A stretch of DNA of 64,000 bases from positions 12,369 through 76,368 of the forward strand of contig JAQTNV010000010.1 of NCBI GenBank assembly GCA_028713675.1, written 5' to 3'. Below are positions 1,345 to 57,280 of the stretch, in pieces; within the stretch, counting starts at the first letter, position 1; each line of letters starts with the position of its first letter. A model generated the notes under the pieces. That model ran no database searches, had not been told where the DNA came from, and saw only the letters and a list, made by a program, of their open reading frames with translations. The position numbers were made by a program, and so were the translations under genes. Source of the DNA: a bacterium (GTDB lineage: Bacteria; Desulfobacterota; JAPLJL01).

Positions 1345-1613
1345 CTGCTTCCTCCTTCTGATAAAGCCTTGATATAAATGTTTGGAGTTGGGTGATAGGT
1401 GTTGGGTGCTGGGTAATAAAACTAAAATGCCACCCGAACTTATACCCCGAACTCTAAAAATTTCCTTCTCAGTTCCCTGCTCCGGGCCCTTTGCCTTCGG
1501 CTCCGACTGGGCAGGACGCCTGGATTCCAACCACCCAGCTACCCAACCACCGCGCAGCCAGGCTGCGGCTATCGTTTTGCCCTATGCCCTCTGCCCTATG
1601 CTCTATACTCTTT

Positions 1614-8465: not shown

Positions 8466-8490
8466 GCGCAGGCTGAAGCCTGCGGCTACC
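8466..8490 (-). repeat. REP palindrome (GGTAGCCGCAGGCTTCAGCCTGCGC family)
   Basis: The sequence gcgcaggctgaagcctgcggctacc has an 8-bp stem, a 2-nt loop and a terminal CTACC (GTAG on the other strand). Confidence 0.7.
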
Positions 8491-8491
8491 A

Positions 8492-9259
8492 CTATTTCTT
8501 CCGATAGATTTCTTCCGCCAGGCTCCCGATCATCAGCGCGCCCTTGGATGCGGGGTCGAACTCCCAGATCGTCTGGCCGTGGCTCTGGGCCTCATCGATC
8601 TTCACGCTATAGCCGATGACGGTCTTGGCCACCCGCTCCTTGAAATGCTCCTTGAGCTTCCCGTGGATGGCTTCGGCGAGCAGGGTGTTGCGCCAAAAGG
8701 TAGCCACGAACATCGAAATCTGGAGATTGTCAGTAAGCGGGGAGAGGCGCGAGCGCACCAGGTCCACGGTCTCCACGATCTCGGCGCAGCCGTCCAGGGA
8801 AAGGTAGGTCAGCGCCACCGGCACGATCACCTCGTCGCAAGCGACCAGGGCGTTCAGGGTAAAAAGTCCCATGGAGGGAGGTGAATCAATGATCACGTAA
8901 TCGAATCCGCGCAGTTCCTTGAGGCGGTTTCTGAGGAGAAGGTTCCGGTCCGGGAGCGTGGCGGCGGTGATGAAGAAATCCGCGAGGTTCTTGTTGGCGG
9001 CGATGATCTTTAAATTTTCGATCTTGGTCGGGAGGATCGCTTCTTTCAGGGGCAGATCGGGCTTGGTCATGAGCTCGAGAATCGTCACCGGCTGTTCCCG
9101 CACATTTATCCCCAGGGACTTCCCCACCTGTCCTTGCGGGTCCAGGTCAATGAGCAGCACCTGTTTTTTCTTCTTCAGCGCCAGGTAGGAGCCGACATTG
9201 ACGACCAGGGTGGTTTTCCCGGTGCCGCCCTTCTCGTTCACGAAAGCAATCTTGCGCAA
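8492..9259 (-). CDS. ParA/Soj-family ATPase (orphan; no parB in the window)
   Basis: Deviant Walker A motif KIAFVNEKGGTGKTT. Likely TTG start at 9259 with a GGGGG RBS. The ORF track extends to 9304. Confidence 0.8.
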   Translation of the reverse strand: MRKIAFVNEKGGTGKTTLVVNVGSYLALKKKKQVLLIDLDPQGQVGKSLGINVREQPVTILELMTKPDLPLKEAILPTKIENLKIIAANKNLADFFITAATLPDRNLLLRNRLKELRGFDYVIIDSPPSMGLFTLNALVACDEVIVPVALTYLSLDGCAEIVETVDLVRSRLSPLTDNLQISMFVATFWRNTLLAEAIHGKLKEHFKERVAKTVIGYSVKIDEAQSHGQTIWEFDPASKGALMIGSLAEEIYRKK

Positions 9260-9513
9260 CTTAAACAACCCCCTTTTCAGAGTGATGAGACTGATTTTCC
9301 TCAATCTTAAAACAAATCACAAGTATTCAAAAGCTCAAAGGTCAAAGCTGAAAGTTCAAAGGTTAAAGCTCAACGCTCAACGGTTGAAATCTTTATTTCG
9401 GAAGCATAAAGTAAAGATATCCATTCAAGTAAAAAGTAAGAAGTGTTAACCGGAAAAACTAAATAAACCAAAGAAATCAGAAAAACTTATATTCATAAAG
9501 GAAGGAGAAAAAA

Positions 9514-13894: not shown

Positions 13895-14080
13895 AAGGTG
13901 ATAGGTGTTGGGTCATGGGTCATAGGTAAAATCAAAACCTAAAACCCAACACCCAAAACCTAATACCTAAAAATAAAAAACCCGAGGTTCCCCGGGTTTT
14001 AAGCTTCTTAACTTTTGGTTTTTCGCCTCTTGCTTCTTGCCTTTTGCCTATAACCTATGACCTATCACCTATGACCTATG
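13895..14080. repeat. Inverted pair of TAGGT-unit heptamer repeats (gtgataggtgttgggtcatgggtcataggt ... acctatgacctatcacctatgacctatgacc) flanking a terminator
   Basis: A related motif (gggtgataggtgttgggtgctgggt) occurs at 1392-1418. Confidence 0.6.
13971..14003. terminator. Bidirectional intrinsic terminator between the convergent 12699..13886 gene and mutS2
   Basis: Hairpin aaaaaacccgaggttccccgggtttt, with an A-run and a T-run on either side. Confidence 0.6.
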
Positions 14081-14082
14081 AC

Positions 14083-20251: not shown

Positions 20252-23134
20252 ATGAAAACCCTGCTTTTTTCCCTGCTCCTGTCCCTGCTCGCCGTCCCGC
20301 CCGGCCAGAAATTCTTCCGCCTGGAAACCGAGCATTTCGTGGTCAACTTCCCCGCCGGGGAGGAAAGCCTGGCGGCCGAAATTTCCGGGATGGCCGAGGA
20401 CGTCCATCGGCGCCTTTCCCCCCTGCTGGATTACACCCCGTTGGAAAAAACCCAGATCGTCCTCACCAGCCATACCGACATCGCCAACGGCCTGGCCACC
20501 CCCTTTCCCCTGAACACGATCGAGATCTATCCCGCTCCCCCGCCGGTGGAATCCTTCCTCGCTTACCGGGACTGGATCTACACCCTGGTCCTGCACGAAT
20601 ACACCCACATCCTCCACCTGGACCAGGCCCGCGGGTTGACCGCGGTCTTCCGGAAAATCCTCGGGCGGGTGATCTTTCCCAATATGGTCGAACCCACCTG
20701 GCTCATTGAGGGGATTGCCGCTCACACCGAGACCGAGCTGGGCGGCAAGGGCCGGGGCCGGAGTCCCTTCTCGGACCTCGTGCTCCAAACCGCGGCGCGG
20801 GAAAAACGCTTTCCCCCGATTGACCGGGGCAGCGGGACCCTGGCCAGCTGGCCGGGCGGCAAATACCCCTACATCTTCGGATCGGGGTTCTACCGCTACC
20901 TGATCGAGACCTACGGCGCGGAAACCCCTTACCGACTTGAGATCTCCCACTCCCGGAGGATTTTTCCTTTCCTGATCAGTCTGAACTCAAGGAAAATCCT
21001 GGGTAAAAGCTACCCGACCCTCTGGCGGGAATGGGGGCAGTCCCTCCGGGATAAATCCCTGTCCCCGGAGGTTTCCCCGGCCGGAAACCCGGAACCCCGG
21101 CCGCTCACCGCTTCTCACGAATTCACTTACGGGGCGAGGTACTCCCCTTCGGGCCGGGAGATCGTCTATACCCAGGAAAATCCCCGGGAGTATCCGGGGC
21201 TTTTCCTGATCCCGGGCGACCGGCCCGACTCCCCGCGAAAACTCGTCTTCCGCAACTCGGGGTCCACCCTGACCTTCGGCCCGGAAGGAAAATCCCTGAT
21301 CTTCGACCAGGAGGAAATCAACTGGAAAACCGAGATCGTTTCGGACCTCTACCGGTTCGACCTGGAGGAGAAACACCTGGTCCGCCTCACCCGCGGACGG
21401 CATTTGACCTATCCCGATTATTCCCCGGCCCGGGACGCGCTCGCGGCCACGCGCCTGAAACCCGGGCGGAGCGAGATTGTCCTGCTCGACGGGCAAGGCC
21501 ACAACCCGGAAACCGTCTGGTCCGGAACCGCGGCGCTCCCTCTCGCCTTCGAGCCCCGTTTTTCCCCCGACGGGCAAAACCTCGTCTTCTCCGCGGCCGA
21601 CGCCTCCGGGAACCTGGACCTTTACCTCCTGGATCTTTCGACCCGGAATCTCGAACGCCTGACCTCCGATCCCGGGGATGACATCTCCCCAACCTGGTCC
21701 CCGGACGGGAAAGAGATCTTTTTCTCCTCCAGCCGGAACGGGAAATACAACCTTTACGCTTATTCCCCGTCCGGGAAAAATCTCCGCCAGGTCACCGATC
21801 TTGAAACCGGGGCCTTCGCCCCCGCCGTCTCCCCGGACGGAAAGGAAATCCTTTTTTCGGGCTACCGGGCTTCGGGATTCGATCTTTTTACTATTCCCTG
21901 CGAACCGGAGAAATGGCACTCACTTCCTCCCGAATACCCCGAGCCAGTTTCAGCAACCAATTCTCAACCTCTCCAACTCACGGATCCTTCTGCTTTCCAA
22001 CTCACCAACTCACTAACTCACCAACCTGCCAACTCTTCAACGCTCCGACTCTCTAACTCACCCTCTTCATATTCCCCCTGGGCGGGGCTGATTCCCCGTT
22101 TCTGGCTCCCGTTCCTGTACTCCGAACAGGTCAATAACGACCTGAAAGGGGTCGCTGCCGGCATAATCACCTACGGCCGGGATGTCCTGGGCCGGCATCT
22201 TTACATCCTGAATCCCTTCTATCACACGGGGGCGAAGCGGGCGGGCGGATACGTCTATTATGAGGAGAATTCCTTTTATCCCCGGCTTTCCCTTTCCGCC
22301 TCCCTGGACTACCTTCCCAAGGAATGGGGGCAGGGTGAATCCCGGCGATTTTTCTGGCTGCATTCCCAGGAAAGCCGGGCGGCGGTCACTCTCCCTTTCC
22401 CTTCTTATCAAAAATCAGCGGCGTTCGTGCTCGCTTTTAATCAAAACTATAAAAAACCCCTTTCCGTCTTCCTGCCCTCCGGGGATAAACCCCAGCCGAT
22501 CTGGCTCCTGGGACCGGAGGTGGCCTTCATCTACGACTCCGCCCGGGCCTTTCCCCTTTCCCCGGGAACCATCCAGGGGCAATGGGCGATGCTGGGGGCG
22601 GAAAAGACGTTCAGCATCCGGGATGGCGAAGTGGAGGATATCACCCGTTTCCGGGCGGACGAAATCCTCTTTTTTCCCCTCCCCGCCCGGGCCGCGGCTT
22701 CCGTCCGGACCGGTCTCAGCTACCGGCCCGACAGTTCCTACCAGCTTACCCCGCGGGGGTACCCTGACCCCGACATCTTCCCCAAATATGCCGCGCTGGT
22801 CGGCCTCAACCTGAAAACCATGCCCTGGGTCATCGAGCGCGGCCTTTTCACGCTCCCGGTCTACCTCAACCTGATATACGCTTCGGTCTTTTCGGATCTC
22901 GGGCTTTCCGGGGCCGATCTTTATGAATTGCATTCCTTCCGGACCGGGGTGGGAGGCTCCCTCAATCTGAAAACCACCCTGGGCTACTCGATCCCGGTGG
23001 TTTTCAGTTTTACCTTGGCCCGGGGATTGAACCAGGATGGTGAAACCCAACTTTATGCTACAATGAATTACGATCTTTTTGGGTTAAACAATGAATATAG
23101 AAGAAATCCGGAAATATTTCCCCGTCGTAGATGA
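20252..23134 (+). CDS. Large secreted multidomain protein: HExxH zinc-peptidase-like domain, PD40/TolB-like beta-propeller repeats and a C-terminal outer-membrane beta-barrel-like region
   Basis: Signal peptide MKTLLFSLLLSLLAVPPG. HEYTH with a downstream Glu (EGIAAHTE). Three or more SPDG(K/Q)E(I/L)xFS PD40 repeats. The C-terminal roughly 350 aa are aromatic-rich and end in an aromatic residue (...YATMNYDLF), typical of OM barrels. Confidence 0.55.
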   Translation: MKTLLFSLLLSLLAVPPGQKFFRLETEHFVVNFPAGEESLAAEISGMAEDVHRRLSPLLDYTPLEKTQIVLTSHTDIANGLATPFPLNTIEIYPAPPPVESFLAYRDWIYTLVLHEYTHILHLDQARGLTAVFRKILGRVIFPNMVEPTWLIEGIAAHTETELGGKGRGRSPFSDLVLQTAAREKRFPPIDRGSGTLASWPGGKYPYIFGSGFYRYLIETYGAETPYRLEISHSRRIFPFLISLNSRKILGKSYPTLWREWGQSLRDKSLSPEVSPAGNPEPRPLTASHEFTYGARYSPSGREIVYTQENPREYPGLFLIPGDRPDSPRKLVFRNSGSTLTFGPEGKSLIFDQEEINWKTEIVSDLYRFDLEEKHLVRLTRGRHLTYPDYSPARDALAATRLKPGRSEIVLLDGQGHNPETVWSGTAALPLAFEPRFSPDGQNLVFSAADASGNLDLYLLDLSTRNLERLTSDPGDDISPTWSPDGKEIFFSSSRNGKYNLYAYSPSGKNLRQVTDLETGAFAPAVSPDGKEILFSGYRASGFDLFTIPCEPEKWHSLPPEYPEPVSATNSQPLQLTDPSAFQLTNSLTHQPANSSTLRLSNSPSSYSPWAGLIPRFWLPFLYSEQVNNDLKGVAAGIITYGRDVLGRHLYILNPFYHTGAKRAGGYVYYEENSFYPRLSLSASLDYLPKEWGQGESRRFFWLHSQESRAAVTLPFPSYQKSAAFVLAFNQNYKKPLSVFLPSGDKPQPIWLLGPEVAFIYDSARAFPLSPGTIQGQWAMLGAEKTFSIRDGEVEDITRFRADEILFFPLPARAAASVRTGLSYRPDSSYQLTPRGYPDPDIFPKYAALVGLNLKTMPWVIERGLFTLPVYLNLIYASVFSDLGLSGADLYELHSFRTGVGGSLNLKTTLGYSIPVVFSFTLARGLNQDGETQLYATMNYDLFGLNNEYRRNPEIFPRRR

Positions 23135-24574: not shown

Positions 24575-24631
24575 CGCAGGCTTCCCTCGGCCATAATGCC
24601 TCGGGATCTGATCGAAAAGCCTGCGTCTACC
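24575..24631 (-). repeat. Long-loop REP variant (57 nt), copy 1 of 3
   Basis: The reverse complement matches the copies at 49887-49943 and 53719-53775 (GGTAGMCGCAGGCTTTTCGATCAGATCCCGAGGYATTRTGRYCGAGGGAAGCCTGCG). Outer stem GCAGGCTT/AAGCCTGC and inner stem TCGATCA/TGATCGA. Confidence 0.75.
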
Positions 24632-24697: not shown

Positions 24698-27295
24698 TTA
24701 TTCGCACTTGGAGAATCCGCAGGCCCGGCAGAAGAAGCAGCCGCTGGCGGATTCCATCTGCCCGCCGCATTCCGGGCAGGCGCGGATATCCGTCTTCCCG
24801 GAAGCCGGGGCGTGCTCCCGGGCGGTTTCCGGGGCGGCCAGATGCGGTTCCTCCACCGGGACCGGGTCGGGGGCCGGCGCGGTCTCCGCCGTTCCCGCCC
24901 CGGGGGCGGTGGCGATCATCTCCGGCGGCTCTTTTTCCTTATCCTTCAGGTAACGCGCGGTGGCCTTGGCGATCGCGTCCGCGCAGGAAAGAATCATGCC
25001 GCCGCCCTTTTCCCAGGCCGGCGACGGGCAGCGCACGCTCTGGAGCTGGCGGATGATGGACTCGGTATCCACCCCGGCCCGGAGCGAAAGGGAAATCAGG
25101 CGGCTGATCGCTTCCGCCTGGGAAGCGGCGCAGCCCCCGGCCTTTCCCATGGTGGTGAAAACCTCGAAGAGGCCGTGCTCGTCCTCGTTGATGGTGATGT
25201 AGAGATTTCCGCAGCCGGTGGTCATCCTCCGGGTGTTCCCGTTGATCACTTCCGGGCGCGGGCGGGGGGTCAGCCCCCGGGCGGCGACCTCGCCGGCCGA
25301 CAGGGGCTTCGTTTCCTGTTCCTTCGTTTCCGGGCCCGGGGCCGCCTGGCCCAGTCCCGAGGTTAGCACCTGGTTCTCCCGGCTGCCGTCCCGGTAGACC
25401 GTCACCCCTTTGCACCCCAGCTCGAAAGCCTGGAGGTAAACCCGGGCCACGTCTTCCCGCGAGGCCGAGCGGGGAAAGTTCACGGTTTTGCTGACCGCGT
25501 TTTCGGTATGCCGCTGAAAGGCCGCCTGCATCTTCATGTGCCAGTCGGGAGTAATATCATGGGCGCAGACAAAAACCCTCCGCCAAGCGGACGGGATCTT
25601 GGACACTTTCTGCGCGTTCCCCTCCCGGGCCACTTCCTGGATCAGATCGTCGGAATAAAAGCCCTCTTCCCGGGCGATCTGCTGGAAAACCGGATTGATA
25701 TCGGGAAGCTTGTCGTTATCCATCACGTTCCGGGTGTAAACCAGGGCATAAAAAGGCTCGATCCCGGAGGAACAACCGGCGATGATGCTGATTGTCCCGG
25801 TGGGGGCGATGGTGGTGACAGTGGCGTTCCGGCGGGGGGGAAGGCCGAGTTTCGCCCAGCGGCTCCCGGGGAAATTCGGGAACGGCCCCCGGGCGGCGGC
25901 GAGCTCCTCGGACATCTTCACCGCCTCGGAATTGACGAAGCCCATGACTTCCTCGGCTGCCTGCAGGCCGGGTTCGGAATCGTAGGGAATCCCGAGCAGG
26001 GCGAGCAGGTCGGCGAAGCCCATGACCCCGAGCCCGACCTTGCGGTTGGCCCGGGTCATCTGCGCGATCTCGGGAAGCGGATAGCGGTTCACCTCGATCA
26101 CGTTGTCCAGAAAACGGACCGCGGTCCGGACCGTCCGGCGGAGGTGGGCATAGTCCACCCGGTAGCGCCGGGAAGCAAAACTCTTGGCGGTGGAGTAATC
26201 CCGGACTTCCTCGGGGATCCCCACCCCGTTGCTGGTGACCATCCGGGCCAGGTTGATCGAGCCCAGGTTGCAGGATTCATAGGGAAGCAGGGGCTGCTCG
26301 CCGCAGGGATTGGTGCTTTCGATCTCCCCGATTTCCGGGGTCGGGTTTTCCTGGTTGATCCGGTCGATATAGATCACCCCCGGTTCGCCGTTGAGCCAGG
26401 CTTTTTCCATGATCCGGCGGTAAACCTCCGGGGCCGAAAGCCGTCCCGCCGCCTTGCCGGTCCGGGGATTTAACAGGTTGTATTCCTCCCCCCGGGCCAG
26501 GGCCTCCATGAACTTATCGGTCACGGCTACCGAGATATTGAAATTATTCAGGCGGTCGGATTTGGTTTTGGCCTCGATAAAATCGAGGATGTCCGGGTGA
26601 TCCACCCGCAGGATCCCCATGTTGGCCCCGCGGCGGGTCCCTCCCTGCTTGATCGTTTCGGTGGCGGCGTCAAAAACCGTCATGAAGGAAACCGGCCCCG
26701 AGGAAACCCCCTTGGTGGAAAGCACGGTATCGTTCTTGGGCCGGACCCGGGAGAAGGAAAAACCAGTACCGCCCCCGCTCTTGTGAATCAGGGCGGTATG
26801 CTTGATGGCGTCGAAAATGCTTTCCATCGAGTCGCCCACCGGCAGGACAAAACAGGCCGAAAGCTGTCCGAGTTCCTTCCCCGCGTTCATCAGGGTTGGG
26901 GAATTGGGAACGAAATCCAGGGTGGCCAGGGCCTCATAAAATTCCTGGGCGACTTCCCCGGGTTCCCGGCCTCCGGTCACCTTTTCCTCCGCGGCGGCAA
27001 TCGCCCGGGCGACCCGGACGTACATCTCCCGGGGGTTTTCGATCACCTGGCCGTCTTCGTCCTTTTTCAGGTATCTCCGTTCGAGCACCCGGCGGGCGTT
27101 CTCGGAAACTGAAACCGGGGGGCTGGAAAAAGGCTGCGATCCCCGGGGAGCCAGCGGTCCCGGATGCGGATCGGAAAGATTGACCGGTATCTTGAAGGTT
27201 TTTTCCTCAACCGCGAGCGGCCGGGAATTGGCTTCCTGGTTTTCCGCGGACTTTGACCTCTCGGAATGAAATTCCTGTCCCGTTCGTGAACTCAT
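24698..27295 (-). CDS. nrdJ: Adenosylcobalamin-dependent (class II) ribonucleotide reductase with a C-terminal Zn-ribbon
   Basis: 865 aa. Class II RNR motifs are present (FVPNSPTLMNAGK, LSACFVLPVGDSMESIF, NPCGEQPLLPYESCNLGSINL). C-terminal CPECGG...CFFCRACG. The N-terminal roughly 70 aa are low-complexity, so the start may be downstream. Confidence 0.9.
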   Translation of the reverse strand: MSSRTGQEFHSERSKSAENQEANSRPLAVEEKTFKIPVNLSDPHPGPLAPRGSQPFSSPPVSVSENARRVLERRYLKKDEDGQVIENPREMYVRVARAIAAAEEKVTGGREPGEVAQEFYEALATLDFVPNSPTLMNAGKELGQLSACFVLPVGDSMESIFDAIKHTALIHKSGGGTGFSFSRVRPKNDTVLSTKGVSSGPVSFMTVFDAATETIKQGGTRRGANMGILRVDHPDILDFIEAKTKSDRLNNFNISVAVTDKFMEALARGEEYNLLNPRTGKAAGRLSAPEVYRRIMEKAWLNGEPGVIYIDRINQENPTPEIGEIESTNPCGEQPLLPYESCNLGSINLARMVTSNGVGIPEEVRDYSTAKSFASRRYRVDYAHLRRTVRTAVRFLDNVIEVNRYPLPEIAQMTRANRKVGLGVMGFADLLALLGIPYDSEPGLQAAEEVMGFVNSEAVKMSEELAAARGPFPNFPGSRWAKLGLPPRRNATVTTIAPTGTISIIAGCSSGIEPFYALVYTRNVMDNDKLPDINPVFQQIAREEGFYSDDLIQEVAREGNAQKVSKIPSAWRRVFVCAHDITPDWHMKMQAAFQRHTENAVSKTVNFPRSASREDVARVYLQAFELGCKGVTVYRDGSRENQVLTSGLGQAAPGPETKEQETKPLSAGEVAARGLTPRPRPEVINGNTRRMTTGCGNLYITINEDEHGLFEVFTTMGKAGGCAASQAEAISRLISLSLRAGVDTESIIRQLQSVRCPSPAWEKGGGMILSCADAIAKATARYLKDKEKEPPEMIATAPGAGTAETAPAPDPVPVEEPHLAAPETAREHAPASGKTDIRACPECGGQMESASGCFFCRACGFSKCE

Positions 27296-34138: not shown

Positions 34139-34309
34139 GGTAGGTGGTAGGTAGCAGGTGGTAGGTGGTAGGTGGTAGGTGGTAGGTGGTAGGTGGTAGG
34201 TGATAGGTGGTAGGTAGTAGGTAGTAGGTAGTAGGTAGTAGGTAGTAGGTAGTAGGTAGTAGGTAGTAGGTAGTAGGTAGTAGGTAGTAGGTAGTAGGTA
34301 GTAGGTAGT
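34139..34309. repeat. Long tandem heptanucleotide array (GGTAGGT / AGTAGGT, about 24 units)
   Basis: About 170 bp of perfect 7-nt periodicity immediately after cpoB, bordering the AT-rich islet. Confidence 0.9.
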
Positions 34310-34356
34310 AGACCCCCGGAAACCGATTTAACTCTTTTTTAAAATTCCATTTAAAT

Positions 34357-36716: not shown

Positions 36717-36741
36717 GCGCAGCCTAAAGGCTGCGGCTACC
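36717..36741 (-). repeat. REP palindrome with compensatory stem changes
   Basis: The sequence gcgcagcctaaaggctgcggctacc has the same architecture and CTACC end as the other copies. The stem is GCAGCCT/AGGCTGC rather than CAGGCT/AGCCTG. Confidence 0.6.
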
Positions 36742-36763: not shown

Positions 36764-36806
36764 TTCAATCGTCAATCGTAAATCGTCAATCGTCAATCGT
36801 CAATTT
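36764..36806. repeat. Tandem heptamer array (AATCGTC units); a second copy lies at 36891-36922
   Basis: The sequence caatcgtcaatcgtaaatcgtcaatcgtcaatcgtcaatt is repeated about 85 bp downstream. Confidence 0.7.
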
Positions 36807-36920
36807 GCGCCTTGCGCTCTGCTTTTCGCAAGGCTAAAGCCTTGCCCTACATTTGCCCTATGCCCTTTGCGATCACAAATCAGGTTTTCACTCGTCAATC
36901 GTAAATCGTCAATCGTCAAT

Positions 36921-49886: not shown

Positions 49887-49943
49887 GGTAGCCGCAGGCT
49901 TTTCGATCAGATCCCGAGGCATTGTGATCGAGGGAAGCCTGCG
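49887..49943 (+). repeat. Long-loop REP variant, copy 2 of 3 (between the porin-like gene and mdh)
   Basis: Near-identical to 53719-53775. Confidence 0.75.
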
Positions 49944-52295: not shown

Positions 52296-52372
52296 TGAGA
52301 TTCAGGGTTTAAGGCTCAAGACTCAAAGTTCAAAGAGAGTCATTTTACCTTTGAGCTTTGACCTTTCACCTG
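52296..52372. repeat. CAAAGGTCAAAG / CTTTGACCTTTG imperfect inverted repeat; other copies lie at 9330-9395, 29570-29665 and 36485-36530
   Basis: AAGGTCA-type heptamer units in direct and inverted arrangement, lying in 5' regions of hypE, parA/9514, tolA and gatB. Confidence 0.55.
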
Positions 52373-53458
52373 CTTTGCCATTAGCTCCCTTCCATATTTA
52401 TAATAAGCGGCGCAGGTCCCTTCGGAGGAAACCATGCAGGGTCCCACCGGCAGGTCAGGGGTGCAGGCCCGGGAAAAAAGCGCGCATTCGGGGGGGCGGA
52501 TCAGGCCCTGGAGAACTTCCCCGCACCGGCATCCGGGCGGTTCTCCCGGGTCGGGCAGTTCAAGCGGAAACACCCGGGCCGCGTCCCGCCCGGAGAGCTC
52601 TTCCCGGAGAAAAAGGCCGCTGTCCGGGATTTCTCCCAGGCCCCTCCAGAGAGCCGGGGCGGGCCGGAACATCTCCTCCATCACCTTGAGAGCCAGGACA
52701 TTCCCTTCCGGTTTTACCACCCGCCGATACTGGATCTCGATGGCCGCCCGTTTTTCCCGGACCTGCCGGGCCAGCATTTCAATCCCTTCCAGGATATCGA
52801 GGGGATCGAACCCGGTGATGACCCCGGGGATGCCGTATTCCCGGGCGATGAACTCATAGGGATGGCTGCCGATGATCACGCTCACATGCCCGGGAAGGAT
52901 GAACCCGTCGATTCTGGTTTTCTTCCCGGAAAGAAGCGCCCGGATCGCCGGGGGAACCAGGCGCTGGGATGAATAGATGAAAAAGTTTTTCAGTTCCAGG
53001 CGCCCGGCTTCCCGGACCGCGAAAGCGGTAGCCGGAGAGGTGGTCTCGAAACCGACCGCGAAAAAAATCACCCGCTTTCCGGGATTATCCTGGGCGAGCC
53101 TGACTGCATCCAGGGGAGAAAGCACCACCCGGATGTCGCCGCCTTCCGATTTTTCCTCGTAAAGGGAGGAGTCCGAACCGGGAACCCGGAGCAGGTCCCC
53201 GAAAGTCGCCAGGATGGTGTTTTCCATCCGGCTGTAGACAATGGCGCGGTCAATCTCCTTCTGCGGGGTGATGCAGACCGGGCAGCCCGGCCCGGAAATC
53301 AGCTCAATTTTCGCGGGGAGAAGCGATTTTATCCCGGTGCGGAAGATGGCGATGGTGTGGGTCCCGCAAACCTCCATGAGCCGCAGGGGCCGGTCCGACA
53401 GAAGAGCGATCTTCTCCAGCCGGCTCCGGGCTTCTCCGGCTTCATCCAGCTTTTTCAT
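52340..53458 (-). CDS. hypD: [NiFe]-hydrogenase maturation protein HypD
   Basis: Motifs MEVCGTHT, GPGCPVC and FETT, plus the C-terminal CPVGPCMVSSEGTCAAYY Fe-S motif. Confidence 0.9.
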   Translation of the reverse strand: MKKLDEAGEARSRLEKIALLSDRPLRLMEVCGTHTIAIFRTGIKSLLPAKIELISGPGCPVCITPQKEIDRAIVYSRMENTILATFGDLLRVPGSDSSLYEEKSEGGDIRVVLSPLDAVRLAQDNPGKRVIFFAVGFETTSPATAFAVREAGRLELKNFFIYSSQRLVPPAIRALLSGKKTRIDGFILPGHVSVIIGSHPYEFIAREYGIPGVITGFDPLDILEGIEMLARQVREKRAAIEIQYRRVVKPEGNVLALKVMEEMFRPAPALWRGLGEIPDSGLFLREELSGRDAARVFPLELPDPGEPPGCRCGEVLQGLIRPPECALFSRACTPDLPVGPCMVSSEGTCAAYYKYGRELMAKQVKGQSSKVK

Positions 53459-53675
53459 CGGGTCCGAGAACCAGTTTCAGAACTTCCCGGGTTTCCAGGG
53501 CGTCTTTCTCGTCCATTTTCTGGATGGCGAAGCCCACGTGGACGAGCACATAATCACCCACCCGGGCGTCCGGGCAGAGGGCAAGGCTGACTTTTTTATT
53601 CACCCCGCCGAAATCAATCTCGGCGACCTGGTCTTCCTCGATCGAGATTATTTTTCCCGGAATTCCAAGACACAT
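53442..53675 (-). CDS. hypC: [NiFe]-hydrogenase maturation chaperone HypC/HupF
   Basis: N-terminal MCLGIPGKII signature. 77 aa. Overlaps hypD. Confidence 0.85.
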   Translation of the reverse strand: MCLGIPGKIISIEEDQVAEIDFGGVNKKVSLALCPDARVGDYVLVHVGFAIQKMDEKDALETREVLKLVLGPDEKAG

Positions 53676-53718: not shown

Positions 53719-53775
53719 GGTAGCCGCAGGCTTTTCGATCAGATCCCGAGGTATTGTGGCCGAGGGAAGCCTGCG
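53719..53775 (+). repeat. Long-loop REP variant, copy 3 of 3 (3' flank of the RAYT)
   Basis: Sequence ggtagccgcaggcttttcgatcagatcccgaggtattgtggccgagggaagcctgcg. Confidence 0.75.
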
Positions 53776-53782
53776 TACATTT

Positions 53783-54253
53783 TCACCATTCTTCCAAATT
53801 ATAAACGGTCGATCCCTTAAAAGGATACCCCTTACTATCCGCCGCCAAACCCTTTCGAACAGGATTATTTAAGATGTATTTTACCTGCTTGAGAATATCT
53901 TCATCTTTTCTTAGGACATGATCATAAAAATCTTTTTGCCATTTAATGCCGGGATGATTTCGCCCCAACCAGTAACCGGTTTTTTGCTTGAAGTTTTTGA
54001 TAAATTTTAATAGATCAGATTCATCGGACTTACCCTCCACTAAAACATGAAAATGATCCGGCATAAAAAGAAAAACATGGGCTTCGCATTCTTCTTTCTT
54101 TAAAATATTGATTAACAGGTCAGAGAAAATCCGAGTAATATTTTCCTGAGCAAATAGAGGATACCTCTCTGCAATACAAACCGTAAAAGTAATTATTATT
54201 TTTCCTCGATATAACTTCGTTGATAAACGGTGTCTGCGTTCTCGGATTTCCAT
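53783..54253 (-). CDS. REP-associated tyrosine transposase (RAYT; IS200/IS605-like Y1 HuH transposase)
   Basis: 156 aa. HuH motif FMPDHFHVLV. Catalytic Tyr / NP motif KYILNNPVRKGL. N-terminal YRGKIIITFTV. Flanked on both sides by GTAG-type REP palindromes. Confidence 0.8.
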   Translation of the reverse strand: MEIRERRHRLSTKLYRGKIIITFTVCIAERYPLFAQENITRIFSDLLINILKKEECEAHVFLFMPDHFHVLVEGKSDESDLLKFIKNFKQKTGYWLGRNHPGIKWQKDFYDHVLRKDEDILKQVKYILNNPVRKGLAADSKGYPFKGSTVYNLEEW

Positions 54254-54261
54254 TCAAAACC

Positions 54262-54512
54262 CGCAACCTGCCTGTCCTGAGCTTGTCGAAGGGAAGGTTG
54301 CGCCTACCAAACATTCAAAATCTTATTCTTGTATCGGTAGCCACAGGCTTCAGCCTGCGCAATTCCGCAACCTAAAGGTTGCGCCTACCAAACATTCAAA
54401 ATCTTATTCTTGTATCGGTAGCCGCATGCTTCAGCCTGCGCTATTCCGCAACCTAAAGGTTGCGCCTACCAGAATGTAATTATTTTTACGCAGGCTAAAG
54501 CCTGCAGCTACC
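54262..54512. repeat. BIME-like cluster of six REPs in alternating orientation, including an approximately 84-bp direct duplication
   Basis: REPs at 54262-54308 (-, long loop), 54336-54360 (+), 54365-54389 (-, stem GCAACCT/AGGTTGC), 54417-54441 (+), 54446-54470 (-) and 54488-54512 (-). Each has a GGTAG or CTACC terminus. Confidence 0.75.
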
Positions 54513-54535: not shown

Positions 54536-56797
54536 CTATTGATGCATTGCATAATACGCCTGCCCCAGCGAGATCCCCCCATCGTTGGCCGGGACCAGGC
54601 GGTTGATGTAAATCGAAAAACCCGATCCTTCCAGAAGCTCGAAAACCCGGCCCAACAGGAAGTGGTTCTGGAACACCCCCCCGCTCAAAATCAGACTTGA
54701 GTGCCCGGTCCGATCCCGCATCCAGCCCGCCACCCGGGCAATCACCCGGGCCACCGAATTATGAAAGCGGGCGGAGATCACGGATTTATCCGTTCCTTTC
54801 CGGATTTCCTCCACCACCGCCTGGATGACGGGATCCGGATCAATGTTCAAAATCCCTTTGATCTCATCTAAACCGAAAAGATATTCCCCGGGTTCACCCC
54901 GCCGGGCCGCCTGCTCGAGTTCGATGGCCGCCTGGCCTTCATACCTCGCCGCGCCCCGCACCCCGAGCAGGGCGCTGACCGCGTCAAAAAGCCGGCCCGC
55001 GCTCGAGCAGGGCGGGGAATTGATTCCCCGCCTGACCGCCGCCTTCAGGACCGACCATTTCTCCAGATCGAGTTCCCGGACGAAGGGAATATCCAGCCCG
55101 GCCAGCTTTTCCCCGGCTATCCGGTCCAGGTACACGGCCGCCATCCGCCATGGCTCCCTGATCCCCTGCTCCCCTCCCGGCAGCGGGATATAACGGATGT
55201 GCGCGAGCCGCCGGTAGCCCTGCAGAGACACCTCCAGGAACTCTCCGCCCCAGATCGTGCCGTCGTCCCCGTAACCGGTCCCGTCCATCGTCACCGCCAG
55301 CGCCGGACCGGCCAGCCCGTGCTCGGCCATCACGGAGAGCGCGTGGGCATAATGATGCTGGACGCCGACACGGGGTAAAGGGATTTCCCGGGCGTGCCGG
55401 GTGGAGAGATAATCCGGATGCAGGTCGTAGGCGACCAGCCCGGGCTCGATCTCGAAAAAGCGCCGGAAATGCGCGATCCCCTCCTGGAATGATTTCAGGG
55501 TCTCAAAATTCTCCAGGTCCCCGATGTGATGGCTGACGAAGGCCGAACTCCCCTTGGTCAGGCAGAAGGTGTTTTTCAGCTCGGCCCCTAGGGCCAGGAC
55601 GCTTTTTCCGCCCCGCGCGAGGGGAATCGGGGCGGGAACGTAACCCCTCGCCCTTCGTAGGAAAACGGTCCCCCCCCGGAAGGGCTTGATCACGGAATCG
55701 TCGCAGCGGGTGTGGATCTCGCGGTTATGAAAGAGGAAATAATCGGCGATCTCCGCGAGCCGTTTCCGGGCTTCCTCGTCCCGGTAGGCGATCGGCTCAT
55801 CGCTCATGTTCCCGCTGGTCATCACCAGGCAGTCGAGTTCCCCGTCGAAAAGCAGGCGGTGAAGCGGGGTATACGGCAGCATCATCCCCAGGGTGTTTTG
55901 AAAAGGGGCAACAGAAGAGGCGACCCGGGCCCCGGTTTTCATGGGCAGAACCACGATCGGGGCTTCCCGGGATTCCAGCAGTTTCTCCGCCTCCCCGTCC
56001 GCCTCGCAGAGTTCCCGGATGACCCCCAGGTCGCGGGCCATCAGGGCAAAGGGCTTGTCCTCCCGGTATTTCCGGCTCCGGAGCCGGCTGACGGCTTCCT
56101 CGTTCCGGGCCGAAACCGCGAGGTGAAACCCTCCCATCCCCTTGACCGCCACGACCACCCCATTTTTCAAAAGCTTCCGTGTCTCCCCGGCCGGGTCCGG
56201 CCCGGCGATTTCCCGTCCGGCCGGGTCCAGAAGCCGGAGGCCGGGGCCGCAATCCGGGCAGGCATTGGGCTCGGCATGGAAACGGCGGTTTCCCGGGTCG
56301 CGGTATTCCTTTTCGCAGGCCGAGCACATTTTAAAAATCGCCATCGTGGTTTTTTCCCGATCGTAGGGTACGTCCCGGATGATCGTGAAACGCGGCCCGC
56401 AGTTGGTGCAGTTGATAAAAGGATAATGAACGCGGCGGTCCTTCTGATCAGAAAACTCCCGGAGGCAATCCCCGCAAATTGCGATGTCGGGCGGGACGAG
56501 AGCTGATCTCTCCCCGCCCCGTTCGCTTTCCCGGATTTCAAAGCTTTTATCACCAACCGGGGGCAGGTCATGGGTGAGGATATTTTCAATTCGGGCCTGG
56601 GGCGGGCTCGCTTTGAGACTGGAAAGAAAACCCTGGATAATGTCCTTCTCCCCCTCAACCTCAATCTGTACACCCTTCTCATCATTTAAAACCCATCCGG
56701 AGAGGCCGTGTTTTCGGGCGAGGTTATAAACAAAGGGGCGGAATCCCACCCCCTGGACTATTCCCTCGACCAGAATATGAACACGGGATTTAGTCAT
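54536..56797 (-). CDS. hypF: Carbamoyltransferase HypF (acylphosphatase, Zn-fingers, YrdC and Kae1-like domains)
   Basis: 753 aa. Acylphosphatase N-terminus (VHILVEGIVQGVGFRPFVY). Two CxxC...CxxC Zn-finger pairs. YrdC/Kae1 segments. Confidence 0.9.
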   Translation of the reverse strand: MTKSRVHILVEGIVQGVGFRPFVYNLARKHGLSGWVLNDEKGVQIEVEGEKDIIQGFLSSLKASPPQARIENILTHDLPPVGDKSFEIRESERGGERSALVPPDIAICGDCLREFSDQKDRRVHYPFINCTNCGPRFTIIRDVPYDREKTTMAIFKMCSACEKEYRDPGNRRFHAEPNACPDCGPGLRLLDPAGREIAGPDPAGETRKLLKNGVVVAVKGMGGFHLAVSARNEEAVSRLRSRKYREDKPFALMARDLGVIRELCEADGEAEKLLESREAPIVVLPMKTGARVASSVAPFQNTLGMMLPYTPLHRLLFDGELDCLVMTSGNMSDEPIAYRDEEARKRLAEIADYFLFHNREIHTRCDDSVIKPFRGGTVFLRRARGYVPAPIPLARGGKSVLALGAELKNTFCLTKGSSAFVSHHIGDLENFETLKSFQEGIAHFRRFFEIEPGLVAYDLHPDYLSTRHAREIPLPRVGVQHHYAHALSVMAEHGLAGPALAVTMDGTGYGDDGTIWGGEFLEVSLQGYRRLAHIRYIPLPGGEQGIREPWRMAAVYLDRIAGEKLAGLDIPFVRELDLEKWSVLKAAVRRGINSPPCSSAGRLFDAVSALLGVRGAARYEGQAAIELEQAARRGEPGEYLFGLDEIKGILNIDPDPVIQAVVEEIRKGTDKSVISARFHNSVARVIARVAGWMRDRTGHSSLILSGGVFQNHFLLGRVFELLEGSGFSIYINRLVPANDGGISLGQAYYAMHQ

Positions 56798-56818
56798 GAT
56801 CCTCGGTGAATCTGCCGG

Positions 56819-57280
56819 TTACCTGCTCTTGAATTCGTTGAGAACGGTTTCGGTAATCTTCGGAAGCTGGGCTTTTACCTCCGGCGTAAGTTCCATTCCC
56901 ATTTCCATCTCTTTGGGCTCGACGCCGATGATGATCACCTCGGCGTGGAAATCCCCCGCCTGTTTAGCCAGCTGGATCACCTGGAGCGGCCCCATGGCGT
57001 GGAGCGAAAGCGCGGCGTCCACCGGCAGGCTCTCCGGGGTCAGACGGTAAATCGTTCCCGGGGGCGCCCCGGTTCGCAGGGCGTCAATGATTACGATTTT
57101 TTCCGCGGCCTGGATCTGGGGCAGGTAGTCGAGGATCGAGGTTTCCGCCTCTATCACCAGGACCCCCGGGGGGAGCTTTTCCCGCTCGAGGGCATGGACC
57201 GCGTGCATCCCCACTCCCTCATCCTGGAAGATGGTATTACCCACGCCGATGATTAAAGTCTTAGGTGTTTCCATAACCAT
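56819..57280 (-). CDS. Hydrogenase maturation endopeptidase (HyaD/HybD family)
   Basis: Motifs LIIGVGNTIFQDEGVG and IIDAL. 153 aa. Confidence 0.85.
   Translation of the reverse strand: MVMETPKTLIIGVGNTIFQDEGVGMHAVHALEREKLPPGVLVIEAETSILDYLPQIQAAEKIVIIDALRTGAPPGTIYRLTPESLPVDAALSLHAMGPLQVIQLAKQAGDFHAEVIIIGVEPKEMEMGMELTPEVKAQLPKITETVLNEFKSR

What the first reader, a model, noticed from the sequence alone, without database searches (positions are those of the whole stretch)
53719..54512. REPtron inserted into the hyp operon: a RAYT transposase flanked by its cognate GTAG-type REP palindromes
ORF 53783..54253 has the diagnostic features of REP-associated tyrosine transposases. It carries the HuH motif (PDHFHVLV), a Tyr/NP motif (YILNNPVRKGL) and the N-terminal GKIIITFTV block, and it is small (156 aa). 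On its 3' side lies a 57-nt palindrome that begins GGTAG. On its 5' side lies a 250-bp BIME-like cluster of six 25-nt palindromes that all end in GGTAG or CTACC, including an 84-bp direct duplication. The canonical REP signature of a conserved GTAG tetranucleotide next to an imperfect palindrome is therefore present. The element sits precisely between hypF and hypCDE, which are normally contiguous. This is a strong candidate for an active or recently active REP-generating system in an apparently uncharacterised lineage.
Basis: partly seen in the sequence, partly recalled or inferred. Interest (0 to 1): 0.7.

Follow-up and report, generated by a model that had tools for sequence, protein, structure and literature searches.

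The report
RAYT transposase with REP hairpins
A small, intact REP-associated tyrosine transposase gene with its own GTAG-tagged hairpin repeats sits between hypF and hypC in an uncultured bacterium; it is a genuine but fairly ordinary example of a known system, and related genomes show the site empty, occupied and later eroded.

Summary
The observation and the interpretation both hold.

**The gene.** ORF 53783-54253 (minus strand, 156 aa) passes NCBI's curated REP-associated tyrosine transposase model (90.8 bits, cut-off 80). It fails the IS200 model. Its predicted fold best matches E. coli TnpA_REP (4ER8, TM 0.72).

**The repeats.** Seven GTAG-footed hairpins flank the gene: six upstream, including an 81-bp (not 84-bp) tandem duplication, and one 57-nt form downstream. 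Six more lie in five other intergenic regions of the window.

**The insertion.**
- HypF relatives at 65-67% identity have hypF and hypC 2 bp apart, with no REPs.
- A relative whose RAYT is 89% identical has the gene in the same place (dN/dS 0.09).
- A relative whose HypF is 87% identical keeps only half a REP fused to the last ~50 nt of the gene. That is a RAYT deletion.
- So the insertion is real but not recent.

**Origin.** The gene is 36% G+C against about 60% for the hyp genes, which suggests a foreign origin.

**Beyond this lineage.** The same 23-nt hairpin occurs next to RAYT homologues in MAGs titled as at least 15 phylum-level groups. Two stem positions change in a compensatory way.

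**Verdict.** New member of a known kind, moderate interest. The genome-wide REP count could not be obtained.

The parts
53783..54253 (-). RAYT / TnpA_REP gene, 156 aa, intact. HuH at H67/H69 and catalytic Tyr at Y126. The WQKDFYDHVLR motif aligns to the stretch of E. coli TnpA_REP that holds its GTAG-contacting residues.
   Evidence: NCBIfam REP_Tyr_transpos 90.8 bits against cut-off 80. Pfam Y1_Tnp E=8.7e-11. PDB sequence hit 4ER8, E=2.7e-6. AF2 model pLDDT 93.7, best fold match 4ER8_A at TM 0.72. Invariant residues in 29 homologues. dN/dS 0.086 against the L001 orthologue.
53719..53775 (+). Long (57-nt) form of REP-A, immediately 3' of the RAYT gene: GGTAG-C-CGCAGGCTT, a 33-nt insert, then AAGCCTGCG. 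Read on the RAYT coding strand, its CTACC foot points away from the gene.
   Evidence: DNA fold -11.5 kcal/mol. Two more copies in the window and 15 loci in metagenome contigs.
54262..54308 (-). Long (47-nt) form of REP-B, immediately 5' of the RAYT start codon: GGTAG-G-CGCAACCTT, a 23-nt insert, then AGGTTGCG.
   Evidence: An identical 48-nt copy is paired with a long REP-A in relatives L133 and L138, at the site orthologous to window 49887.
54336..54360 (+). Short REP-A (GGTAGCCACAGGCTTCAGCCTGCGC).
   Evidence: Covariance model R1, 30.9 bits, E=5e-7.
54365..54389 (-). Short REP-B (GGTAGGCGCAACCTTTAGGTTGCGG). With 54336-54360 it forms an inverted heterodimer in which the tails face each other.
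   Evidence: R1 39.5 bits.
54417..54441 (+). Short REP-A (GGTAGCCGCATGCTTCAGCCTGCGC).
   Evidence: R1 36.3 bits.
54446..54470 (-). Short REP-B. With 54417-54441 it forms a REPIN-like doublet.
   Evidence: R1 39.5 bits. The doublet folds at -17.5 kcal/mol, z=-4.85.
54488..54512 (-). Short REP-A (GGTAGCTGCAGGCTTTAGCCTGCGT), the REP closest to the hypF stop codon.
   Evidence: R1 37.7 bits.
54294..54471 (.). 81-bp tandem duplication (2.2 copies, 96% identical) that amplified one REP-B plus REP-A doublet together with its linker.
8466..8490 (-). Dispersed short REP-A, starting 1-2 nt after the stop codon of the gene 8492-9304(-).
   Evidence: R1 41 bits.
24575..24631 (-). Dispersed long REP-A, intergenic, 3' of the gene 24698-27295(-).
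36717..36741 (-). Dispersed short REP whose stem carries a compensatory change (GCAGCCT/AGGCTGC).
   Evidence: R1 41.8 bits.
36826..36850 (-). Dispersed short REP variant (TGTAGGGCAAGGCTTTAGCCTTGCG).
   Evidence: R1 25.9 bits, E=1.6e-5.
49887..49943 (+). Dispersed long REP-A in the spacer between mdh and a porin-like gene. Its orthologous site in relatives L133 and L138 also carries it.
1551..1574 (-). Degenerate REP (GATAGCCGCAGCCTGGCTGCGC).
   Evidence: R1 16.9 bits, E=0.008.
54536..56797 (-). hypF, the upstream neighbour (context for the insertion).
   Evidence: 100% identical to an NCBI entry named 'carbamoyltransferase HypF'.
53442..53675 (-). hypC, the downstream neighbour (context). Outgroups have it 2 bp after hypF.

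Best explanation
This is a REPtron: a single RAYT (TnpA_REP, a Y1 HUH single-strand DNA nuclease) bracketed by its cognate REP hairpins.

**The hairpins.** Each REP is a GTAG foot, one unpaired base, a 7-bp stem and a 4-nt loop. Two sequence types occur: A (stem CGCAGGC) and B (stem CGCAACC). They alternate in inverted orientation like the Y/Z REPs of E. coli BIMEs.

**Mechanism, by analogy with E. coli TnpA_REP (inferred).** The enzyme binds the folded REP on single-stranded DNA and reads the GTAG foot. It then cuts and rejoins the strand through Tyr126 and the His67/His69 metal site. This copies REPs, or REP doublets, into other intergenic sites and amplifies local clusters, while the gene itself stays single-copy.

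**History, shown by comparison.**
- The unit entered the 2-bp hypF-hypC junction in an ancestor of this lineage.
- It was inherited vertically under purifying selection in the window and in the L001/L002 lineage.
- It was largely deleted in the L125/L126 lineage.

**Other inferences.** The 36% G+C of the gene in a roughly 60% G+C operon suggests horizontal acquisition. No promoter or terminator consensus was found on its strand, so it is probably read through from hypF into hypCDE.
For: **Protein identity.**
- Curated HMM above its cut-off; Pfam Y1_Tnp.
- Best solved relative by sequence and by fold is TnpA_REP 4ER8, from a model with pLDDT 93.7.
- HuH, Tyr126 and the W105-Q106..D111-H112..R115 motif are invariant in 29 homologues.

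**REPs.**
- Seven flank the gene and six are dispersed, all extragenic.
- Single-stranded DNA hairpins of -7.5 to -8.4 kcal/mol, z -2.5 to -4.1.
- Among 227 REP copies from many genomes, the two free stem positions are Watson-Crick complementary in 219, using 8 different pair combinations. On 30 distinct sequences, 33 cells changed on both sides, and 0 of 500 shuffles reached that.
- RAYT homologues of 39-56% identity in other taxa are flanked by the same REPs.

**History of the site.**
- Empty site in outgroups. No REP found in 20.6 kb of the two outgroup loci searched.
- Same position in the relative with 89% RAYT identity.
- Deletion remnant in L125/L126.
- dN/dS 0.086.
- REP number differs between close relatives.
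Against: - No biochemical evidence that this protein cuts or moves these hairpins.
- The dispersed REPs in the window are singlets, not the doublets (REPINs) thought to be the mobile unit.
- The genome-wide copy number is unknown.
- A clean insertion of gene plus hairpins into an operon junction, with foreign G+C, is more transposon-like than the 'immobile domesticated RAYT' model predicts.
- One closely related lineage lost the gene, so it is dispensable.
Confidence: 0.82

Rival explanations
1. An autonomous IS200/IS605-like insertion sequence: the gene plus its bracketing hairpins transposes as one unit. The dispersed REPs would then be solo ends or MITE-like derivatives rather than the products of a domesticated enzyme.
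For: - Clean 860-bp insertion into a 2-bp intergenic junction.
- Gene G+C 0.36 against 0.61 for hypF.
- In the window and in L001 the gene lies between a forward REP-B and a reversed REP-A, with the GTAG feet pointing outward, like the left and right ends of an IS.
- Homologues of about 50% identity are scattered over many phyla, and there is an 86%-identical pair labelled WOR-3 bacterium and Pacearchaeota archaeon.
Against: - NCBIfam transpos_IS200 scores 26.9 bits against a cut-off of 55, while the RAYT model passes.
- The fold is closer to TnpA_REP (TM 0.72) than to the IS608 or ISDra2 transposases (TM about 0.55).
- Only one copy in 64 kb.
- Same position in a relative with dS about 0.86, so there has been no detectable movement since.
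- REP orientation immediately next to the gene is not conserved in L003 and L004.
- No close homologues on plasmids or phages.
Confidence: 0.1
2. A relic system: the RAYT is kept for some other host function, or is on its way out. The REPs would be fossil or regulatory hairpins (mRNA 3'-end stabilisers or attenuators) that no longer move.
For: - One sister lineage deleted the gene.
- Dispersed REPs are singlets, and some are degenerate (1551-1574).
- The 49887 REP is retained at the orthologous site in a relative of about 83% nucleotide identity, which indicates slow turnover.
- Several REPs sit just 3' of stop codons.
Against: - dN/dS 0.086, with every catalytic and GTAG-reading residue intact.
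- 81-bp tandem duplication at 96% identity.
- The two RAYT-bearing relatives differ in REP content on both sides of the gene.
- The hairpins lack T-runs, and no terminator consensus was found on that strand.
Confidence: 0.07
3. Chance or an annotation artefact: a spurious ORF next to unrelated palindromes.
For: None beyond the small size of the ORF.
Against: - 380 homologues, the best at E=1e-102.
- Curated HMM passes.
- REP motif found 14 times against 1.8 expected.
Confidence: 0.01

Closest known systems
E. coli K-12 REPtron: TnpA_REP (RAYT, PDB 4ER8) with Y/Z2 REPs and BIMEs. Quentin et al. 2018 subclass 2.2; Bertels group 2.
   Same: - Best sequence and fold match.
- HuH plus Tyr catalytic core, with WQ..F.(E/D)H..R aligned to the E. 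coli residues that contact GTAG.
- Single gene flanked by GTAG-footed hairpins of two sequence types that alternate in inverted orientation.
- The same hairpins are dispersed extragenically.
   Different: - Only 23-30% identical.
- DHFH and YILNNP here, against DHLH and YIHYNP (PMC6006769, Table 1).
- Asp replaces Glu100.
- Short perfect 7-bp stems with the foot 1 nt off the stem, rather than long bulged stems.
- Host is an uncultured bacterium related to Deltaproteobacteria, not a gammaproteobacterium.
Pseudomonas/Xanthomonas RAYT-REPIN systems. Subclass 2.5, Bertels group 3; GTAG-1 type REPs of Di Nocera et al. 2013.
   Same: - Length about 151-156 aa.
- DH[LF]H HuH motif, WQ motif, and Asp at the E100 position.
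- Short REPs with unpaired base(s) between GTAG and the stem.
- Foot plus spacer plus stem is 12 nt, within the published 10-13 nt range.
- TY-type loops, inverted doublets and tandemly amplified clusters.
- Published features are from PMC6006769 and PMC3733652; features of this element are.
   Different: - The Tyr motif is YILNNP, which fits subclass 2.7 or 2.4, not YI[VI]ANP.
- The one Pseudomonas homologue found, on a plasmid, is 30% identical.
- This clade is spread over many phyla rather than confined to xanthomonads and pseudomonads.
- The dispersed copies seen here are singlets.
IS200/IS605 family TnpA (IS608, ISDra2)
   Same: - Same Y1 HUH fold (TM about 0.55).
- Hairpin-recognising single-strand chemistry.
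- Gene bracketed by hairpins.
   Different: - Fails the curated IS200 model.
- Has the RAYT-specific C-terminal region and GTAG-reading motif.
- One copy.
- The hairpins occur without the gene.

Membership tests
RAYT / TnpA_REP (REP-associated tyrosine transposase) | Scores above the curated family HMM threshold | tested here: met
   NF047646 REP_Tyr_transpos 90.8 bits against cut-off 80. Pfam PF01797 42.4 bits against 23.
RAYT / TnpA_REP (REP-associated tyrosine transposase) | HuH motif and a single catalytic Tyr about 58-67 residues downstream, in a Yxx.NP context | tested here: met
   H67-F-H69 and Y126 (YILNNP), spacing 59 aa. All are invariant in 29 homologues. The spacing range is from PMC6006769.
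RAYT / TnpA_REP (REP-associated tyrosine transposase) | Residues equivalent to the E. coli GTAG-contacting residues W94, Q95, E100, H101 and R104 | tested here: met
   W105 Q106 ... D111 H112 ... R115 align to WQPRFWEHAIR of 4ER8 and are invariant. The E-to-D change is as in subclasses 2.5 and 2.7 (PMC6006769).
RAYT / TnpA_REP (REP-associated tyrosine transposase) | TnpA_REP-type fold | tested here: met
   AF2 model pLDDT 93.7. The top PDB hit is 4ER8_A, E=6.6e-10, TM 0.72/0.68, rmsd 2.8 A.
RAYT / TnpA_REP (REP-associated tyrosine transposase) | Gene flanked within +/-1 kb by hairpins with a 5' GT[AG]G foot (REPtron) | tested here: met
   Six upstream and one downstream, all within 260 nt.
RAYT / TnpA_REP (REP-associated tyrosine transposase) | The same hairpins dispersed in many extragenic copies in the genome | tested here: inconclusive
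   Six dispersed copies at five intergenic sites in 64 kb, and at least 11 contexts in related metagenome contigs. The rest of the source genome could not be reached, so no genome-wide count.
RAYT / TnpA_REP (REP-associated tyrosine transposase) | Single copy, vertically inherited at a syntenic position | tested here: inconclusive
   One copy in the window. Same position in the relative with 89% RAYT identity, with dS similar to the flanking genes. Against this, the G+C is foreign and the outgroups have an empty site. Copy number in the whole genome is unknown.
RAYT / TnpA_REP (REP-associated tyrosine transposase) | Cleaves and rejoins REP single-stranded DNA | not testable with these tools
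   Needs purified protein and oligonucleotide assays.
IS200/IS605 TnpA | Scores above the curated IS200 family threshold | tested here: not met
   NF033573 transpos_IS200 26.9 bits against cut-off 55.
IS200/IS605 TnpA | Whole element (gene plus ends) present in several copies | tested here: inconclusive
   Only one gene copy in 64 kb. The rest of the genome was not available.
Quentin et al. 2018 subclass 2.5 (Bertels group 3) | Diagnostic motifs DH[LF]H, WQ and YI[VI]ANP, with length about 151 aa | tested here: not met
   DHFH, WQ and 156 aa fit. The Tyr motif is YILNNP, with Y[IVL]L.NP across the clade, which matches 2.7 (YI[LR][NQ]NP) or 2.4 (YIxNNP) instead. Motifs are from PMC6006769 Table 1. 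No reference sequences were available for a tree.
Quentin et al. 2018 subclass 2.5 (Bertels group 3) | Short REPs, GTAG 1-2 nt off the stem, foot plus stem 10-13 nt | tested here: met
   GTAG, 1 unpaired nt and a 7-bp stem give 12 nt. The long variants are insertions into the loop.
REPIN (REP doublet forming a hairpin) | Two inverted REPs a few nt apart that can fold as one long hairpin and occur as the dispersed unit | tested here: inconclusive
   Doublets exist in the REPtron (54365-54441 overlap region and 54417-54470). One folds at -17.5 kcal/mol, z=-4.85. A long-A/long-B doublet occurs in relatives L133 and L138. All dispersed copies in the window are singlets.

The most novel reading that the evidence does not exclude
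This RAYT clade may not be a domesticated, strictly vertical gene. It may be a REPtron that still moves between genomes, and into new sites, as a unit of gene plus bracketing hairpins.

The evidence does not exclude this reading:
- a clean insertion into a 2-bp operon junction;
- 36% G+C in a 60% G+C operon;
- an essentially invariant 23-nt REP hairpin, free only at two compensating stem positions, next to RAYTs of 39-56% identity in MAGs titled as at least 15 phylum-level groups;
- an 86%-identical pair labelled as a bacterium and an archaeon.

If this is right, the hairpin sequence is frozen by protein recognition across much of the bacterial domain, and the hyp locus series (empty, occupied, eroded) is a natural record of REPtron gain and loss.
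Probability: 0.25. Interest if true: 0.55.

Novelty: new member of a known kind. Interest (0 to 1): 0.33.

Why it matters
RAYT/REP systems have been studied almost entirely in enterobacteria, pseudomonads, xanthomonads and cyanobacteria.

This locus adds a well-resolved example from an uncultured lineage. It comes with an unusually complete natural series at one site: an empty 2-bp junction, two occupied variants with different REP content, and a RAYT-deleted remnant whose breakpoint lies in a REP loop.

That series bears on two open questions: how RAYT genes arrive in genomes (horizontally or vertically), and what happens to REP populations after RAYT loss.

The near-identical hairpin across many phyla, with compensatory changes confined to two stem positions, also gives a ready-made map of which REP positions the enzyme probably reads.

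It does not change the picture of what RAYTs are.

Tried and rejected
1. **Genome-wide REP count.** The exact RAYT protein is not on record in the contig index. No count was obtained.
2. **Link between REPs and heptanucleotide tandem arrays.** The window has 22 period-7 arrays, and most dispersed REPs here sit beside one. Period 7 also dominates in REP-bearing loci from other phyla. However, across 196 REPs in 119 loci the distance to the nearest array equals that of random non-coding positions: 4.6% against 4.6% within 30 nt, and 10.2% against 10.3% within 200 nt. Excess heptamer repeats are already described for bacteria in general (PMC4692102, PMC4679880). I rejected this as part of the finding.
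3. **Known RNA families.** Rfam gave nothing at gathering thresholds for the whole window.
4. **Literature.** An exact search for the REP sequence found no paper.
5. **Plasmid or phage carriage.** Only plasmid hits of 32% identity or less, and no phage hits.
6. **Own promoter or terminator for the RAYT.** None on the minus strand by simple consensus. This is weak evidence, because the scan covers sigma-70 patterns only.
7. **Conserved 'gene inside a split REP doublet' architecture.** It holds in the window and in L001 but not in L003 or L004, so it is not general.
8. **Assignment to a published RAYT subclass.** The motifs are a mosaic of 2.5 and 2.7/2.4, and no reference sequences were available for a tree.
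Full report
**1. What is in the sequence**

On the minus strand the order is:
- hycI (56819-57280);
- hypF (54536-56797);
- a 282-bp spacer;
- a 156-aa ORF (53783-54253);
- a 107-bp spacer;
- hypC (53442-53675), hypD and hypE.

Read on the coding strand, the upstream spacer holds six hairpins with a GTAG foot:
- A forward (54512-54488);
- B forward (54470-54446);
- A reversed (54441-54417);
- B forward (54389-54365);
- A reversed (54360-54336);
- a 47-nt long form of B forward (54308-54262).

The downstream spacer holds one 57-nt long form of A, reversed (53775-53719).

Type A is GGTAG-C-CGCAGGC-TTYA-GCCTGCG. Type B is GGTAG-G-CGCAACC-TTTA-GGTTGCG.

One B+A doublet with its linker is tandemly duplicated with a period of 81 bp (2.2 copies, 96% identical), not 84 bp. 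The motif is far above chance: 14 matches against 1.8 +/- 1.3 in shuffles.

**2. The protein is a RAYT**

- It passes NCBI's curated REP-associated tyrosine transposase model (90.8 bits, cut-off 80). It fails the IS200 model (26.9 bits, cut-off 55). Pfam Y1_Tnp gives E=8.7e-11.
- The only significant solved relative by sequence is E. coli TnpA_REP, 4ER8 (E=2.7e-6). The alignment matches PDHFH to PEHMH, WQKDFYDHVLR to WQPRFWEHAIR, and YILNNPV to YIYINPV.
- An AlphaFold model built on 29 homologues has pLDDT 93.7. Its best PDB match is 4ER8_A (TM 0.72, rmsd 2.8 A), ahead of the IS608 and ISDra2 transposases (TM about 0.55).
- In the 29-sequence alignment these residues are invariant: H67, H69, W105, Q106, K107, Y110, D111, H112, R115, Y126, N130, P131 and R133.
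- The exact protein is already in NCBI as 'MAG: transposase [bacterium]' on a 76,789-bp contig. Several homologues are named 'REP element-mobilizing transposase RayT' by JGI.

**3. The hairpins are REPs, not local oddities**

A covariance model built from 30 distinct short REPs finds nine short copies in the window at E<0.01. With the four long forms that makes 13: seven in the REPtron and six at five other intergenic sites:
- 1551-1574;
- 8466-8490;
- 24575-24631;
- 36717-36741;
- 36826-36850;
- 49887-49943.

As single-stranded DNA each short REP folds into a 7-bp stem with a 4-nt loop, and GTAG lies one base from the stem. Energies are -7.5 to -8.4 kcal/mol, with z from -2.5 to -4.1. A B+A doublet folds as one long imperfect hairpin (-17.5 kcal/mol, z=-4.85).

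The 57-nt long form occurs three times in the window. An exact-match scan of metagenome contigs found 15 more loci with at least 11 different flanks. Two of them are orthologous to the window's 49887 site. There it is paired with a long B that is 100% identical over 48 nt to the copy next to the RAYT.

**4. History of the locus**

- Three relatives whose HypF is 65-67% identical have hycI-hypA-hypB-hypF-hypC-hypD-hypE, with hypF and hypC 2 bp apart (…TAA AG ATG…). No REP was found in 20.6 kb of the two loci searched with the model. The 860 bp between hypF and hypC in the window is therefore an insertion.
- Two JGI contigs (L001, L002) carry a RAYT 89% identical at exactly the same place. Their REP content differs: four REPs upstream and three downstream.
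- Between the window and L001 the RAYT has dN/dS 0.086 (dS 0.86). That is comparable to hypC (0.14) and the hypF C-terminus (0.11). The gene has therefore been inherited with its neighbours under purifying selection.
- Two other contigs (L125, L126; HypF 87% identical) have a 152-bp spacer instead. It consists of the 5' half of a REP-B (GGTAGGCGCAACCTTTAG) joined directly to the last ~50 nt of the RAYT reading frame (…KGYPFKGSTVYNLKEL*), followed by one reversed REP-A. This is a deletion of the RAYT with one breakpoint in a REP loop.
- The site thus exists in empty, occupied (two variants) and eroded states.
- The RAYT gene is 36% G+C (GC3 0.34), against 59-61% (GC3 0.71-0.74) for hypF, hypD and hypE. 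Homologues in L003 and L004 are also about 38% G+C. I infer a foreign origin for the gene.

**5. Beyond this lineage**

Homologues of 46-60% identity come from MAGs labelled Deltaproteobacteria, Ignavibacteria, Nitrospirae, WOR-3, Uhrbacteria, Calditrichaeota, Roseilinea and Pacearchaeota.

At 50% clustering, 6,364 representatives match at E<=0.001, but only 28 at E<=1e-30.

The homologues in L003 (56% identity) and L004 (53%) are flanked by almost the same hairpins.

I scanned one genome per species with GTAGNNNCAGGCTNNAGCCTGCG.
- My estimate of the chance expectation for 18 fixed bases is about 17.
- By record title the loci come from at least 15 phylum-level groups.
- The five free positions are nearly always CCG/TCG/GCG and TT/TC.
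- RAYT homologues of 36-48% identity lie beside the hits in eight loci, with REPs on both sides in the four examined.

Relaxing the two central stem positions gives 227 copies. Of these, 219 are Watson-Crick complementary, in eight combinations: GG/CC 153, AC/GT 38, GA/TC 7, AG/CT 6, GC/GC 6, AT/AT 5, AA/TT 2 and CC/GG 2. On 30 distinct sequences these two pairs carry 33 double changes, and no shuffle of 500 reached that. The other stem positions were fixed by my search pattern, so they say nothing.

MAG labels can be wrong through mis-binning, so the phylum count is an upper-end reading.

**6. Mechanism**

*Shown:*
- homology, fold and the catalytic and GTAG-reading residues;
- the cognate hairpins, both flanking and dispersed;
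- selection for hairpin pairing;
- purifying selection on the gene;
- gain, local amplification and loss at one locus.

*Inferred from E. coli TnpA_REP (PMC3333891, PMC3479197, PMC8266576):*
- the enzyme binds the folded REP on single-stranded DNA and reads GTAG;
- it cuts and rejoins through Tyr126 and the HuH metal site;
- this spreads REPs or doublets and amplifies clusters.

*Also inferred:* no sigma-70 promoter or intrinsic terminator consensus lies on the minus strand between hypF and hypC. The RAYT is therefore probably transcribed with the hyp operon, and hypC uses a new ribosome-binding site in the inserted DNA (GGAG 8 nt before the ATG).

**7. Comparison with what is known**

The arrangement is a REPtron in the sense of Ton-Hoang et al. 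2012. Two REP types alternate in orientation, as in E. coli BIMEs.

Against the diagnostic table of Quentin et al. 2018:
- The protein fits subclass 2.5 (Bertels group 3) in its DH[LF]H motif, its length, Asp at the E100 position, and its short REPs with an off-stem foot.
- Its YILNNP motif fits subclass 2.7 or 2.4 instead.
- That study sampled complete genomes only, so this mainly MAG-borne clade was probably not represented. I could not build a tree because I had no reference sequences.

Di Nocera et al. 2013 already reported that some GTAG REP families occur in evolutionarily distant organisms, and that GTAG-1/2 types carry extra unpaired bases after GTAG. The cross-phylum hairpin is therefore an extension of a known pattern, not a new one.

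**8. Verdict**

It is a new member of a known kind. Interest is moderate. The added value lies in two things:
- the gain, retention and loss series at the hyp locus;
- the strikingly conserved hairpin with covariation confined to two stem positions.

The main gaps are the genome-wide REP count and any direct evidence of activity.

Noticed in passing
window, e.g. 34140-34311 (GTAGGTA x24.6), 9330-9380, 13934-13972, 14047-14086, 21997-22062, 36765-36804, 36888-36920: Intergenic DNA of this genome is full of heptanucleotide tandem arrays of many different unit sequences: 22 period-7 arrays of at least 3 copies in 64 kb. Period 7 is also the dominant tandem-repeat period in REP-bearing loci from other phyla (120 arrays in 837 kb). 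REPs are not closer to the arrays than random non-coding positions, so the two features look independent. Similar heptamer excess is described for cyanobacteria (STRR), Xanthomonas and Beggiatoaceae, with no known mechanism.
   Followed up: partly
window 52340-52400 (hypD 3' end and hypD-hypE spacer): HypD ends ...YYKYGRELMAKQVKGQSSKVK* here, against ...YYKYGR* in relative L125. The stop codon is lost, and the ORF reads 12 extra residues into a heptamer array (GGTCAAA-type). That array is followed by its inverted complement, forming a long potential hairpin. L125 has the same paired arrays after its stop codon.
   Followed up: partly
window 56797-57280, compared with L127-L129: In this lineage hycI is followed directly by hypF. 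Relatives with 65-67% identical HypF have hycI-hypA-hypB-hypF, so hypA and hypB must lie elsewhere or be absent here.
   Followed up: no
L125 3040-3100 and L126 3040-3100: The junction of the RAYT deletion lies in the loop of a REP-B hairpin (…CAACCTTTAG|AAGGGGTATCC…), with a possible TAG microhomology to the RAYT 3' region. This could reflect hairpin-promoted slippage or RAYT-mediated cleavage.
   Followed up: partly
proteins P0065 and P0105 (homologues of the window ORF): RAYTs labelled 'candidate division WOR-3 bacterium' and 'Candidatus Pacearchaeota archaeon' are 86% identical over their full length. This is either inter-domain transfer or mis-binning.
   Followed up: partly
L003 14118-19428: A Cas12a (Cpf1)-Cas4-Cas1 locus lies about 4 kb downstream of the RAYT homologue in Deltaproteobacteria MAG GCA_016234925.1.
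   Followed up: no
L004 13222-13698 and L005 8550-9026: A second, distantly related Y1_Tnp gene (32% identical to the window RAYT) lies 3 kb downstream of the RAYT homologue on the same strand.
   Followed up: no
L063 and L072 (record titled MAG: Klebsiella pneumoniae isolate HRSG-E1-bin-52): A RAYT 39% identical to the window's, flanked by CGTAGTCGCAGGCTTCAGCCTGCGC hairpins, is found in a bin titled Klebsiella pneumoniae. The label was not verified.
   Followed up: no
window 24575-24631, 49887-49943, 53719-53775 and 54262-54308: The long REP forms carry conserved 33-nt (type A) or 23-nt (type B) inserts in the hairpin loop. The A insert can extend the stem only imperfectly (TCGATCA/TGATCGA is perfect in one copy only). 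It was found only in this lineage and its close relatives. Its origin is unexplained.
   Followed up: partly
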